Positions 19,628 through 22,600 of a stretch of DNA of 64,000 nucleotides are shown here, one piece after another. The position numbers are program-made. Numbering within the stretch: the stretch's first letter is position 1; the number at the start of each line of letters is the position of its first letter. Source of the stretch: Escherichia coli O157:H7 (GTDB lineage: Bacteria; Pseudomonadota; Gammaproteobacteria; Enterobacterales; Enterobacteriaceae); assembly GCF_013167455.1 (NCBI RefSeq), contig NZ_CP038328.1. One strand, given 5' to 3'.

Positions 19628-22600
19628 TGATAATCCTCCCGCCAGAAGAATAAAACATAGCCCGGTATACAAGTGTATACCGGGCTTTTTTGATCAAAAT
19701 TCCATTTTCACCGTGAATTGCACTTCACGCGGATCGCCAATCTGATTCCCCAGATTATTTGTGGCGATGGAAGAGGTGTAATACGTTTTATCAAACAGGT
19801 TTTTGACGTTTAATTGCAGTGTGACCGGATACTGCAATTTCATTTTGTATGCGGCGAAGGCATCGGCAACGAAATAGCCTGGCAGATAATAGTCAGCCCC
19901 ATTGGTTGCCGAACGACGGCTTACGCCATGTCCACCACCGCCAAACGTCAGTGTGTTATTGCCTGGCATGTTATGAATGTCATAGGTCAGGAATAGCGAA
20001 CCGGTATGACGAGGAACATTCGGCAATGGTTTCCCTGCATAATCAGGATCTTCCAGAACCTTAGCATCGGTATAGCCGTAGCTGGCAATGATATTAATGT
20101 TTTCAGTTAATGCTCCCGCAAGGTCGACTTCTACCCCTCTTGAACGAACGCGGCCTGCCGTTTTGGCGATGGTTTCATCACCAATACTTTCGGTATACAA
20201 CACGTTACGTTTATGGATATCAAACAGCGCAATATCTGCGGTTATACCATCGAACAGCTCGAATTTTGCCCCGACTTCGTAAGCATTAGATGATTCCGGT
20301 GGAAGATCTCCGATGTAGCTGGCAATTGACGATTGCGGCATAAATGTTTGCGAATAATTAGCAAATAAGGATACCGATGGCGTCAGTTTGTAGACTAACC
20401 CCAGTTTGGGCGTCCATTGTTCATCGCGGCTGTCAGTATTGACATTAAAAGGACGGCCTTTACCCGCATACTGCGTGTAATACTGATAGCGGATCCCGGC
20501 GACGGCAATCCAGTTATCGGTCAGATAGAGCGCATCCTGTGCATAAGCTGAGTAGCTCTCCTGTTTGATCGTCTGATCACTGTCCGACGCCGAAACCGTT
20601 GTGCATTTGCTGGTATTGCCATAAACGGGGTTGTAGATATTGAAATCTTTAGCGTTTTTACAGCGAATCATATCTGTGCGCAGAAGATCATAATATTCAT
20701 ATGACACCCCACCCAGAATCTCATTATAGAACCCAGCAATATCAACATTCCCTTGCAGATCCGCACGAGTAGAATGCATACGCTGGGTAGATCCCTGAGT
20801 TGCATCAACACGCCGTGTCAGCGTTCCTGTCGTTGCATCATACGCGGTAACGCGAGCCTGATTGTCGCTGTATTTATCCTGGCTGTAGCTGTAATCAAAG
20901 CGCGCTGTCCACTGGCTATTGAGATGATATTCTGCGTTGAGTTGCGCCAGATCGGACTGACCATCTGTAATATTAAACGGTTCGTCAAAACGTATTTTTC
21001 GATCAACGTTTACGGGCTGTTTCGTCGTAAGGTCGAAAATCGTTCCACGATCGAACGGAGTTTTATAGTCCCGATGGGAATAGAGCATGGTTACTGTTGC
21101 ATTATCACCAAACCAGGTGAGTGACGGGGCAATAAATGTACTGCGCTCTTTACCGAAGTTTCGCCAGTAATCTTCATCCTGCACTTCCCCCGTCAGGCGG
21201 TATGCCAGCTGAGTGCCTTCAATGGGACCTGTGATATCAAGTTGCCCAGTGCCTCCGCCAAAACTGGAGGACGTGGCTGAGACAGAACCATGGAATGTTT
21301 TTTCCGGGCGCTTGGTCACGACGTTAATCAATCCACCAGGATCGAGAATGCCATACAGCGTGGAGGCCGGACCTTTTAGCACTTCCACACGTTCTGTGGC
21401 GGCGTTGAAACTGCGAGGAAGTACAGTTCGCAGGCCGTTGGTCATGATGGAGCCATCCCGGTTAGCACCAAAACCACGACGTACAAAGGCGTCCTGAGTT
21501 CCGCCTAATGTATTGGTCTGTACCACGTTACTGACGTTATAAAGCGCTTCATCCAGCGTCGTTGCATTCTGATTTTCCAGAACCTGATCGCTAACCGTAT
21601 TGACCACCTGCGGGATATCCAGCATCGGCATATCGGTTAATGTCGCCGTGGAAGTGCTCAGAGGTTGATAACCATCGGTCGCCTCAGTTGCGGTATTTGC
21701 ATCCGCTGTAACAGTGATTGTTTCGCCATCTTTGGTCGTTGCAGTGTCGGTTGCATGAATCATTGGTGCTGCAAAGAGCAGTGAAAAGAGCGCCCGACCT
21801 TTGATTCCTGAGAATGAAGGTGTGAACTTAGCCATTTAGTCTGTTATCCCAAAAACTCACGGATTGTCGTGAGTGAAAATTGTTTCTTGTTGCTCACTAA
21901 GCACTATCCGTTTGTTATTTTACCATCGGATATGTAATTGAGAATCATTCAATCATGCGGTAATGTAGTAGTAAATGAGAAATAATAAAAAATTGCTACA
22001 TGTGTTTTTATGAGAGGTTAATGCAATTCAATTGATGGTAATTTATTAATATTTAATGATTTTATTTTTATCTTTAAAAATATTTCACCTGTTATTTACC
22101 TTGTTTTTGTATGGCTTTTAACTTCTTGACTACTACATTTTGTGGCGTCAAACTCTCAAAAGAGAATGAGTTTTATTTTTGTTTTTCTTTGATTAAGTTG
22201 GCGTACACGTGGCACATAACGCAAAAGGGCAGGGGCTGATCCTCGACAATGTTTCTGCCGGGTATCACAAGAAAATCATTGTTGATGGTGTTTCTTTCTC
22301 CGTTCCCACAGAAAAAATGACCGTTCTGGTTGGGGCAAACGGCTGTGGAAAGTCGACGTTGCTCAGCACCATTGCACGTGTCTTGCAACCCATGGGCGGC
22401 TCAATATTGCTGGATGGTAAAGCGATTCACGAGCAACCAACGAAAGCGTTATCCCGTAGACTTGGGATCTTGCCGCAGTCGCCATTATTGCCGGAGGGCT
22501 TAACCGTTTATGAACTGGTGTCGCGTGGGCGTTTTCCCTGGCAAAATTTCATACGTCAATGGAGCGACGCCGACGAGCAGGCGGTAGAAGAGGCCCTGAA

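What the first reader, a model, noticed from the sequence alone, without database searches (positions are those of the whole stretch)
21836..22208. Very AT-rich divergent control region with a Fur-box-like motif
This ~370 bp intergenic region is markedly AT-rich, in contrast to the flanking coding sequence, which is the pattern expected for horizontally acquired, H-NS-silenced DNA. It holds the promoters of both the receptor gene and the ABC operon, and gtaattgagaatcattcaatcat (~21934-21956) resembles a Fur box. The ATPase gene appears to start with GTG and a weak RBS.
Basis: seen in the sequence. Interest (0 to 1): 0.4.

Follow-up and report, generated by a model that had tools for sequence, protein, structure and literature searches.

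The report
Known Fur-repressed fit iron-transport promoter
This AT-rich gap is the already published two-way promoter of the E. coli O157:H7 'fit' iron-uptake genes, and the suspected Fur box is a real, experimentally bound Fur site, so the finding is correct but ordinary.

Summary
The window is E. coli O157:H7. Its 21836-22208 stretch is identical to the Sakai sequence between fitA (TonB-dependent receptor, minus strand) and fitBCDE-fitR (ABC transporter plus RpiR-type repressor).

**Observation: confirmed.**
- The gap is 373 bp at 29% GC, the most AT-rich intergenic region of the window.
- fitB can only start at GTG 22209, and its Shine-Dalgarno match is weak.

**Fur reading: supported.**
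- The motif scores only 12/19 to the consensus (9.4 bits), which is not significant alone in AT-rich DNA.
- However, it is nearly identical across 39 species from Escherichia to Erwinia.
- It overlaps the predicted fitA -10 element.
- It lies under a published Fur ChIP-exo peak.
- A second, stronger box (22162-22180) lies at the fitB-side peak.
- Published delta-fur data show derepression of both arms, and FitR binds this fragment in a gel-shift assay.

**H-NS and foreign-DNA reading: untested.** The island's coding GC is close to the window average.

**Extras found here, all inferred:**
- An inverted ACTACTACA pair sits on both -35 regions and is a candidate FitR operator.
- The distance between the two copies is fixed (about 162 or 183 bp) although the spacer sequence is unconserved.
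- The roughly 105-nt fitA leader has two covarying hairpins.

Verdict: already known, low interest.

The parts
19694..21835 (-). fitA, TonB-dependent siderophore-type outer-membrane receptor (713 aa; ECs_3917 in Sakai)
   Evidence: ORF list. NCBIfam TIGR01783 at 373.6 bits, above its cut-off. RefSeq annotation.
21836..21940 (-). Predicted fitA 5' leader, about 105 nt. The transcription start is inferred, not mapped.
   Evidence: Inferred from the predicted promoter. The covariance model built on it finds 32 orthologous leaders. No Rfam family matches.
21855..21874 (-). Leader hairpin P2: ACUCACG / loop ACAAUC / CGUGAGU, followed by UUUU and lying 19 nt before the ATG. It resembles a terminator.
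   Evidence: Sequence. The stem sequence differs between genera but pairing is kept: all 7 pairs show compensatory changes and 91.6% of cells are paired. The tool's terminator threshold is not reached.
21905..21932 (-). Leader hairpin P1, with outer stem UAUCCG/CGGAUA, close to the predicted 5' end
   Evidence: Inverted repeat I10. RNAalifold finds 4 pairs, all with compensatory changes. Helix 1 has 5 of 6 pairs compensatory and 94% of cells paired.
21934..21952 (.). It overlaps the predicted -10 and transcription start of the fitA promoter.
   Evidence: PWM 9.4 bits, 12/19 to consensus. Identical in nearly all of 39 species, and the variants move toward the consensus. The Fur ChIP-exo peak centre lies 116 bp upstream of the fitA ATG, equivalent to window ~21951, in CFT073 and 042.
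21947..21975 (-). Predicted fitA promoter: -35 TTTACT (21975->21970), 17-nt spacer, TGn plus -10 TTGAAT (21955->21947)
   Evidence: The hexamers and the TG are invariant across 39 loci. Coordinates. This is an inference; no 5' end data.
21964..21975 (.). Motif c, copy 1: TGTAGTAGTAAA (reverse complement TTTACTACTACA). Candidate FitR operator lying over the -35 and spacer of the fitA promoter.
   Evidence: Invariant in all 39 loci. It forms a 14-nt, 93% complementary inverted pair with 22126-22139 (I3). The exact 9-mer ACTACTACA occurs only 3 times in the window, two of them here.
21995..22001 (.). Partial third copy of motif c (GCTACAT), inverted relative to copy 1 and upstream of the fitA -35
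   Evidence: CTACA is conserved in the Escherichia/Enterobacter group and in many other genera.
22002..22125 (.). AT-rich spacer between the two promoters. Its sequence is unconserved but its length is fixed.
   Evidence: The distance between motif c copies is 160-162 bp in 20 loci and 182-184 bp in 19 loci. Ungapped identity of the central part averages only 0.37-0.49.
22039..22051 (.). Central conserved element TAATTTATTAATA (TAAnnnnTTGAWA in relatives). It could be a third Fur site, an IHF-like core or an H-NS nucleation-like site.
   Evidence: It is the only conserved block inside the spacer. A Fur ChIP-exo peak in strain 042 maps to the equivalent of window ~22056. Neighbouring PWM hit of 9.4 bits at 22052. 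On the minus strand it matches TCGATAAATT with 2 mismatches.
22126..22154 (+). Predicted fitB promoter: -35 TTGACT (22126-22131), 17-nt spacer containing motif c copy 2 (ACTACTACA, 22129-22137), -10 CAAACT (22149-22154)
   Evidence: TTGACTACTACA is invariant. The -10 position reads CATGAT or CAAAAT in other genera at the same spacing. Coordinates. Inference only.
22162..22180 (.). Fur box B, GAGAATGAGTTTTATTTTT, at about +1 to +19 of the predicted fitB promoter
   Evidence: PWM 13.6 bits, 13/19, third best of 63,982 window positions. Shuffle P = 0.047. Variants in other genera score 14.7-17.8. The fitB-side Fur ChIP-exo peak maps to window 22161-22164.
22209..23018 (+). fitB, ABC transporter ATPase, starting at GTG with a weak SD. 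First gene of fitBCDE-fitR.
   Evidence: The GTG is invariant in 20 loci. More distant orthologues start at an ATG four codons upstream with a GGAG SD.
25999..26886 (+). fitR, MurR/RpiR-family regulator and last gene of the operon. Published autorepressor that binds the intergenic fragment.
   Evidence: NCBIfam MurR/RpiR hits. RefSeq name. PMC2593036.

Best explanation
The region is the bidirectional control region of the fit iron-uptake locus of E. coli O157:H7. Two back-to-back sigma-70 promoters fire outward, one into fitA and one into fitBCDE-fitR.

**Shown by others**
- With iron, Fur binds in vivo at two places in the gap and represses both arms.
- The locus-encoded RpiR-type protein FitR binds the same fragment and adds an independent 2-5-fold repression.

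**Inferred here**
Box A lies over the extended -10 (TGaTTGAAT) and the start point of the fitA promoter. Box B lies over the start point of the fitB promoter. Fur would therefore block RNA polymerase binding or open-complex formation.
- The invariant inverted pair TTTACTACTACA / TTGACTACTACA, which covers the -35 and spacer of each promoter, is the likeliest FitR operator.
- The AT-rich middle is an architectural spacer. Its length, but not its sequence, is under selection.
- The fitA message carries a structured leader of about 105 nt.
For: **Identity of the locus**
- 100% match to O157:H7 genomes, with the gap between a TonB-dependent receptor and an ABC ATPase.
- The gap is identical to the Sakai gap, where RefSeq names fitA and fitC.

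**Published function**
- Fusions of the gap in both directions are iron-repressed.
- FitR shifts the 347-bp intergenic fragment in a gel-shift assay (PMC2593036).

**Fur binding in vivo**
- ChIP-exo gives two intergenic peaks about 211 bp apart in Sakai, CFT073 and 042, plus a central peak in 042 (PMC10164565 Dataset 2).
- Mapped on the same accession versions, the peak centres fall at the equivalents of window ~21951 and ~22161-22164.
- Delta-fur/WT log2 changes for 042, Sakai and CFT073 are 8.1, 3.5 and 3.9 for fitA, and 5.9, 1.8 and 3.3 for fitB.

**Sequence evidence**
- PWM scores of 9.4 and 13.6 bits lie within the range of known Fur promoters.
- Both boxes are conserved in 39 loci from Escherichia to Erwinia and Pantoea, and their substitutions move toward the Fur consensus.

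**Promoter and operator model**
- The TTGACT / 17 nt / CAWRMT and TTTACT / 17 nt / TGnTTGAAT arrangements are invariant.
- Motif c is an inverted pair.
- The spacing between its copies is fixed.
Against: - Neither transcription start has been mapped in anything I could read, and both -10 hexamers are weak (CAAACT, TTGAAT).
- The generic promoter scan did not return either model. It proposed two other, non-conserved candidates at a rate no higher than in shuffles.
- The PWM score of box A alone is not significant in AT-rich sequence: 34% of shuffles reach it.
- ChIP-exo peaks are 13-bp summits lying 8-10 bp from the box centres. They do not by themselves assign Fur to the exact 19-mers.
- No experiment assigns FitR to motif c. 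It could instead bind box A, whose TGTAAT resembles half-sites of some RpiR-family operators (recalled from memory, not tested).
- The original 2006 fit paper could not be read and may already contain site predictions.
Confidence: 0.85

Rival explanations
1. The AT-rich gap is mainly a binding platform for H-NS, which silences a horizontally acquired island. Fur would be secondary.
For: - GC is 0.29, the lowest intergenic value in the window.
- The locus is accessory in E. coli, present in 34% of complete genomes.
- The E. coli spacer (22-29% GC) is more AT-rich than in other genera (29-45%).
- The central element resembles the H-NS nucleation motif TCGATAAATT, with 2 mismatches here and 1 in some relatives. 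That motif is recalled from memory.
Against: - The island's coding DNA is 48-51% GC, close to the window's 51.6%, so there is no island-wide AT bias of the kind that marks xenogeneic silencing.
- The motif scan shows no enrichment in the window (71 matches observed, 61 expected) and only one match in the gap.
- Published derepression by fur and fitR mutations already accounts for 52-fold regulation.
- No H-NS data for the locus were found.
Confidence: 0.15
2. The conserved 21933-21957 block is the FitR operator rather than a Fur site. Fur would act only through box B and the central site.
For: - The Fur match is weak: 12/19, 9.4 bits, shuffle P 0.34.
- The block is more rigidly invariant than a degenerate Fur box needs to be.
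- FitR binds somewhere in this fragment.
Against: - A Fur ChIP-exo peak lies on it in three strains and is assigned to fitA.
- fitA is the most strongly Fur-dependent gene of the locus.
- Natural variants move toward the Fur consensus, for example GTAATTGATAATCATTCAA at 13.7 bits.
- A different invariant motif, present once per promoter, is available for FitR.
Confidence: 0.1
3. The Fur-box resemblance is a chance match in AT-rich DNA with no function.
For: 34% of dinucleotide shuffles of the gap give an equal or better PWM hit. 93 window positions match the consensus at 12 or more of 19 positions.
Against: - The sequence is identical across 39 species while the neighbouring spacer has diverged to near-random identity.
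- It coincides with an in vivo Fur peak.
- It sits at a fixed distance from the conserved -35.
Confidence: 0.02

Closest known systems
Bidirectional Fur-controlled promoters of the E. coli enterobactin cluster (fepA-fes, fepDGC-entS, fepB-entC). Described from established knowledge; their sequences were used here as PWM training data.
   Same: Divergent iron-uptake genes (receptor or ABC transporter) share one AT-rich gap. Fur boxes overlap the -10 and start region of each outward promoter. Expression is derepressed in fur mutants.
   Different: - The fit gap is longer (373 bp), with the two promoters about 160 bp apart rather than overlapping.
- It has a separate Fur peak for each arm.
- Its Fur boxes are weaker (9.4 and 13.6 bits, against 12.9-21.1 for the three ent-cluster gaps on the trained PWM (12.4-17.9 leave-one-out)).
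- It is also controlled by a locus-encoded RpiR-type repressor.
The fit system as published: Ouyang & Isaacson 2006 (Infect Immun 74:6949, not readable here), Ouyang & Isaacson 2008 (PMC2593036), and the Fur pan-regulon study (PMC10164565).
   Same: It is the same locus. The window's gap is identical to that of Sakai. Fur and FitR dual repression and in vivo Fur binding are already reported.
   Different: The 2008 paper states that the exact Fur and FitR sites were unknown. The pan-regulon paper lists peaks without discussing the locus. The base-level architecture, the spacer constraint and the leader structure given here are new inferences, not published facts as far as I could find.
MurR/RpiR-family repressors acting on divergent promoters, for example MurR at murR-murQP and HexR (established knowledge; not examined here).
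   Same: FitR has the N-terminal HTH plus SIS-domain architecture (PMC2593036). It represses its own operon and the divergent gene by binding the shared gap.
   Different: - Known family members respond to phosphosugars and control sugar metabolism, whereas FitR controls an iron-type transporter and its effector is unknown.
- The candidate operator ACTACTACA is not a known RpiR-family motif as far as I can recall.
- FitR scores below every NCBIfam equivalog cut-off.
The fecIR-fecABCDE system, a Fur-controlled iron transporter with its own dedicated regulator (established knowledge; cited in PMC2593036).
   Same: An E. coli iron-uptake locus with a second, system-specific layer of transcriptional control on top of Fur.
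   Different: fec uses an ECF sigma/anti-sigma signalling cascade that activates transcription. fit uses a cytoplasmic repressor, and no sigma factor gene lies in the locus.

Membership tests
Fur regulon promoter / Fur box | Sequence match to the 19-bp Fur consensus GATAATGATAATCATTATC, within the range of known sites | tested here: met
   Box A scores 12/19 and 9.4 bits. Box B scores 13/19 and 13.6 bits. Leave-one-out scores of 15 known promoters range 5.4-22.3 with a median of 13.8. Caveat: box A alone is not significant against AT-rich shuffles.
Fur regulon promoter / Fur box | The site overlaps core promoter elements, so that Fur can occlude RNA polymerase | tested here: inconclusive
   Both boxes overlap the -10 or start of conserved promoter-like hexamers. 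The promoters are predicted only. The generic scan did not return them, and no 5' end data were available.
Fur regulon promoter / Fur box | Fur occupies the site in vivo | not testable with these tools
   Taken from the literature. ChIP-exo peaks occur in Sakai, CFT073 and 042 (PMC10164565 Dataset 2). I mapped them to the equivalents of window ~21951 and ~22161-22164.
Fur regulon promoter / Fur box | Derepression without Fur or without iron | not testable with these tools
   Taken from the literature. fitA rises 23-fold in a fur mutant, and lacZ fusions are induced about 3-fold by iron depletion (PMC2593036). In Sakai the delta-fur log2FC is 3.5 for fitA and 1.8 for fitB. The fit permease gene Z4383 is co-induced with Fur-regulated genes by bile (PMC3769235).
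H-NS-silenced horizontally acquired DNA | AT content clearly above the host genome average across the acquired segment | tested here: not met
   Only the 373-bp gap is AT-rich (GC 0.29). fitA is 0.48 and fitB-fitR is 0.51, against 0.516 for the window.
H-NS-silenced horizontally acquired DNA | H-NS occupancy and derepression in hns mutants | not testable with these tools
   No data found. The supplements of the CFT073 H-NS/StpA paper do not mention the locus. The nucleation-motif scan was uninformative.
MurR/RpiR-type repressor with operator in a divergent promoter region | Locus-encoded HTH plus SIS regulator | tested here: met
   The product of window 25999-26886 hits MurR/RpiR, HexR and AlsR models (E 1e-14 to 1e-22), all below equivalog cut-offs. 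RefSeq names it a MurR/RpiR family regulator.
MurR/RpiR-type repressor with operator in a divergent promoter region | A defined operator sequence bound by the regulator | not testable with these tools
   A gel shift on the whole 347-bp fragment is published. The site is unknown. ACTACTACA at 21964-21972 (minus strand) and 22129-22137 (plus strand) is my candidate, from conservation and symmetry only.
Intrinsic terminator / transcription attenuator in the fitA leader | GC-rich stem-loop directly followed by a U tract | tested here: inconclusive
   Hairpin P2 has 7 pairs (4 of them G-C) and a 6-nt loop, followed by UUUU then GGG. The tool's threshold is not met (0 terminators found). The U tract is longer in Kluyvera and Citrobacter and absent in Erwinia.
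Intrinsic terminator / transcription attenuator in the fitA leader | A conserved alternative (antiterminator) pairing or a ligand-binding fold | tested here: not met
   A 73% complementary alternative pairing exists in E. coli (I1), but by eye I saw no equivalent in the Enterobacter leader sequences; not computed. No Rfam family matches. Whole-leader folding energies are not unusual, with z from about -2.4 to +1.4.

The most novel reading that the evidence does not exclude
The fit control region may be more than two Fur boxes. Two possibilities remain open.

- **A repression loop.** The two inverted ACTACTACA elements are held at a fixed, phase-preserving distance: 162 bp in one group and 183 bp in the other, a difference of two helical turns. 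The AT-rich spacer between them has a conserved central bend or binding site. One oligomeric FitR (with or without Fur or IHF) could therefore bridge both promoters in a loop.
- **A post-transcriptional control element in the fitA leader.** The leader's two covarying hairpins, the second resembling a terminator just before the start codon, could form an attenuator, or a short Fur-controlled leader RNA with a possible sRNA target site at GRGCAAUGA. No such element has been described for this receptor family.
Probability: 0.3. Interest if true: 0.45.

Novelty: already known. Interest (0 to 1): 0.2.

Why it matters
It matters little as a discovery. The locus, its two-way promoter, its Fur dependence, its second repressor and the in vivo Fur peaks are all published.

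The useful outcome is a base-level, testable map of a promoter whose sites the original authors left open:
- which 19-mers Fur most likely uses;
- where the promoters probably are;
- a specific candidate FitR operator.

Two features could make fit a compact model for how a global and a local repressor share a divergent promoter: a length-constrained spacer and a structured fitA leader. The fit system is carried by about a third of E. coli genomes, including O157:H7, UPEC and EAEC strains, and its substrate is still unknown.

Tried and rejected
1. **Esr41.** I suspected from memory that the Hfq-dependent sRNA Esr41 might be the fitA leader. It is encoded on SpLE1, not here (PMC5286369), so I rejected this.
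2. **RyhB pairing with the leader.** The conserved GRGCAAUG is complementary to RyhB CAUUGCUC. However, duplex energies are no better than for shuffled leaders (median z -0.25), and E. coli itself has only 6 complementary bases. I kept it only as an idea.
3. **Rfam.** The search of the gap gave only a meaningless plant-miRNA hit at E = 0.24.
4. **Generic promoter and terminator scan.** It found two candidates, no more than in shuffles, neither of them conserved, and no terminator.
5. **H-NS.** The nucleation-motif scan showed no enrichment, and the H-NS ChIP supplement had nothing on this locus.
6. **Small ORFs in the gap.** There are six of 21-71 aa. All six overlap stretches that are poorly conserved between genera, so I did not pursue them.
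7. **The 2006 fit paper (PMC1698097).** It is not held.
8. **MAFFT/RNAalifold on all leaders.** This recovered only the base of P1, because P2 is misaligned. A hand-given structure and a covariance model were needed.
9. **Locus-tag literature search.** It gave only one relevant paper.
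Full report
**What the window is**

The stretch around the finding matches E. coli O157:H7 chromosomes at 100%. A related copy is present in 1870 of 5426 complete E. coli genomes.

RefSeq annotation places the finding between a TonB-dependent siderophore receptor and an ABC transporter ATPase. These form a six-gene block inserted between parE and ygiN. In Sakai the block is annotated fitA, fepC_2, fitC and so on, and the Sakai gap is base-for-base identical to window 21836-22208. NCBIfam agrees with the gene roles: receptor, ATPase, two FecCD-type permeases, a binding protein and a MurR/RpiR-type regulator. The finding is therefore the fitA-fitB intergenic region of the published fit iron-transport system.

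- The gap is 373 bp at 29% GC, in a window of 51.6% GC.
- It is the most AT-rich 373-bp stretch of the window and the lowest of 29 intergenic regions.
- The quoted string is at 21934-21956.
- fitB has no alternative start. An in-frame stop sits at 22194, and the next start codon after GTG 22209 is codon 37, just before the Walker A motif.
- The SD duplex with the 16S 3' end is only -4.0 kcal/mol.
- In Citrobacter, Kosakonia, Kluyvera and Erwinia the gene begins four codons earlier at an ATG behind a GGAG. The Escherichia/Enterobacter GTG corresponds to an internal Val codon there.

**Formal scoring of the Fur box**

I trained a symmetric 19-bp PWM by seeded refinement on 14 Fur-regulated K-12 promoter regions plus the window's own exbB promoter. 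Leave-one-out best-site scores had a median of 13.8 bits, with a minimum of 5.4 (fhuE) and 8.7 for exbB.

| Site | Position | Score | Consensus match |
|---|---|---|---|
| Better site he did not list (box B), GAGAATGAGTTTTATTTTT | 22162-22180 | 13.6 bits | 13/19 |

Box B is the third-best position in the window. Against dinucleotide shuffles of the AT-rich gap, box B is borderline (P = 0.047) and box A is not significant (P = 0.34). The stated refutation criterion, 'PWM below genome background', is not met. Even so, the PWM alone would not establish the site.

**Conservation settles it**

A scan of one genome per species with FitA returned 39 orthologous loci. Every one has a divergent fitB next to fitA.

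- Box A is letter-for-letter identical from Escherichia through Enterobacter, Citrobacter, Kosakonia, Kluyvera and Yokenella to Erwinia and Pantoea.
- The few variants move toward the Fur consensus, for example GTAATTGATAATCATTCAA at 13.7 bits.
- Box B varies as GAGAATGATATTTATTTTT (17.8 bits) and GATAATGAGAGTTATTTTT (14.7 bits).
- Meanwhile the DNA between the promoters has diverged to 37-49% ungapped identity.

**Experimental evidence already exists**

- *Ouyang and Isaacson (PMC2593036).* They cloned this gap in both orientations as lacZ fusions. [quoted passage not shown] Purified FitR shifts the 347-bp fragment. They state that the exact Fur and FitR sites were unknown.
- *The Fur pan-regulon study (PMC10164565).* Its Dataset 2 lists ChIP-exo peaks. 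Sakai has two intergenic peaks, assigned to ECs3912-3916 and to ECs3917. CFT073 has two and 042 has three.
- *Mapping the peaks.* The CFT073 and 042 accessions are the same versions as in my collection, so I could map those peaks exactly.
- The fitA-side summit is 116 bp upstream of the ATG, equivalent to window 21945-21957.
  - The fitB-side summit falls at window 22161-22164, the left edge of box B.
  - The extra 042 peak falls at about 22056.
  - The Sakai peaks have the same 211-bp spacing.
- *Expression.* Delta-fur/WT log2 changes are 3.5 (fitA) and 1.8 (fitB) in Sakai, and larger in 042 and CFT073.
- *Bile.* A fit permease gene is co-induced with Fur-regulated genes by bile in O157:H7 (PMC3769235).

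**Architecture inferred here**

The alignment of the 39 gaps shows that the conserved blocks form two mirror-image arms.

- *Plus strand (fitB).* TTGACT (22126-22131), 17 nt, then CAAACT (22149-22154). That hexamer reads CATGAT or CAAAAT at the same position in other genera. Box B follows at about +1 to +19.
- *Minus strand (fitA).* TTTACT (21975-21970), 17 nt, then TGaTTGAAT (21955-21947) with an invariant TG, i.e. an extended -10. Box A covers the -10 and the start point.
- *Motif c.* In both arms the -35 is fused to the same invariant sequence ACTACTACA (21964-21972 on the minus strand, 22129-22137 on the plus strand). Promoter spacers are not normally conserved. A motif that occurs once per promoter in mirror symmetry is therefore the natural candidate for the operator of FitR, which represses both directions. 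A partial third copy, GCTACAT, lies at 21995-22001.

These are inferences. No 5' ends or footprints were available, and the generic promoter scan did not return these hexamers.

**The AT-rich middle**

Between the two motif c copies the sequence is unconserved, yet the distance is fixed. It is 160-162 bp in all 20 Escherichia, Enterobacter, Lelliottia, Silvania and Huaxiibacter loci, and 182-184 bp in the other 19. The difference is two helical turns. By contrast the fitA leader varies from about 100 to 150 nt and more.

The only conserved block inside the spacer is central: TAAnnnnTTGAWA (window 22039-22051). Three readings fit it:
- an IHF core on the other strand (WATCAANNNNTTR, perfect in several species);
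- an H-NS nucleation-like site;
- a third Fur site, close to the 042 central ChIP-exo peak.

A length- and phase-constrained flexible spacer suggests that the two arms communicate, for example through a loop closed by oligomeric FitR. This is speculation that fits the data.

The AT-richness itself is stronger in E. coli (22-29% GC in the spacer) than elsewhere (29-45%). The fit coding DNA has ordinary GC, and I found no H-NS data. The H-NS-silencing idea is neither supported nor excluded.

**The fitA leader**

From the predicted start to the ATG lie about 105 nt containing two hairpins.
- P1 (21905-21932) sits near the 5' end.
- P2 (21855-21874) is followed by UUUU and ends 19 nt before the ATG.

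Their sequences differ between genera while the pairing is kept.
- On a hand-given structure over 16 leaders, 89.7% of cells pair, against at most 42% for slid controls.
- A covariance model built on this found 32 leaders.
- On that alignment 92% of cells pair, 14 of 15 pairs show compensatory changes, and none of 500 shuffles reach any of the five measures. The caveat is that the alignment is fitted to the model.

P2 resembles a terminator in most Enterobacteriaceae but lacks a U tract in Erwinia. It fails the tool's terminator threshold, and by eye I saw no conserved antiterminator in the leader sequences. No Rfam family matches. A conserved single-stranded GRGCAAUGA between the hairpins is complementary to RyhB's CAUUGCUC, but the energetics are unremarkable. 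I regard the leader as a real conserved structure of unknown role. It could act in mRNA stability, translation control or attenuation.

**Verdict**

The H-NS and foreign-DNA gloss is unsupported. The added value here is a base-level site map and two unexplained conserved features: fixed spacer length and a structured leader. Interest is low and the novelty class is 'already known'.

Noticed in passing
window ~20340-20370 (inside fitA, about 1.49 kb downstream of its ATG): A Fur ChIP-exo peak lies at the same intragenic position in Sakai, CFT073 and 042. In the Sakai table it is assigned to yqiA, and a further Sakai-only peak inside fitA is assigned to parE. The best PWM hit there is only 6.8 bits (GCGAATAATTAGCAAATAA at 20350).
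   Followed up: partly
window 52506-52530 (hybO-yghW intergenic region): This holds the highest Fur-PWM score in the window (15.0 bits, with a second overlapping hit shifted by 6 bp). It agrees with the published Fur ChIP-exo peak at hybO and with the lower hyb expression in delta-fur strains.
   Followed up: partly
window 8383-8407 and 8630-8648 (around the ribB FMN riboswitch, ribB-ubiK gap): Two Fur-PWM hits of 14.9 and 13.2 bits flank the annotated FMN riboswitch. I did not check whether Fur binds there.
   Followed up: no
window 46806-46824 (exbB promoter): This internal positive control, the exbB Fur box, scores 11.0 bits. The W3110 ChIP-exo summit maps 18 bp from its centre, which shows how far summits can sit from the best 19-mer.
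   Followed up: yes
L018-L025, L046 and related Enterobacter loci, just upstream of the fitB -35 (aligned to window ~22098-22118): Enterobacter-group gaps carry a GC-rich hairpin, CCCTGG(n6-7)CAGGG, followed by TGTTTCTTCT on the fitB-sense strand. It is degenerate in E. coli and its function is unknown.
   Followed up: no
window 21885-21900 (minus strand) and the orthologous leaders: The conserved single-stranded motif GRGCAAUGA between the two leader hairpins is complementary to the RyhB core CAUUGCUC. E. coli itself has GAGCAACAAGAAACAA, a run of A-R-N triplets of the kind bound by Hfq.
   Followed up: partly
L029-L036, L038-L039, L041-L045, L047, L051-L053, fitB leaders: In the genera whose fitB starts at ATG, the fitB leader is 30-50 nt longer. 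It contains a conserved GC-rich segment (ACGCGCGC...GTTGCGGCGCAGGAG) that is absent from the Escherichia/Enterobacter type.
   Followed up: no
window 62211-62500, 9322-9582 and 7492-7759: Three other markedly AT-rich intergenic regions (GC 0.30, 0.31, 0.34): between the pitB pseudogene and gss, between yqiD and ribB, and between glgS and yqiJ.
   Followed up: no
window ~62500-64000 and ~49900-51000, ~40300-41200: In the matching O157:H7 record, pitB is truncated next to a transposase fragment at the window's end. gpr and yqhG are annotated as frameshifted pseudogenes.
   Followed up: no
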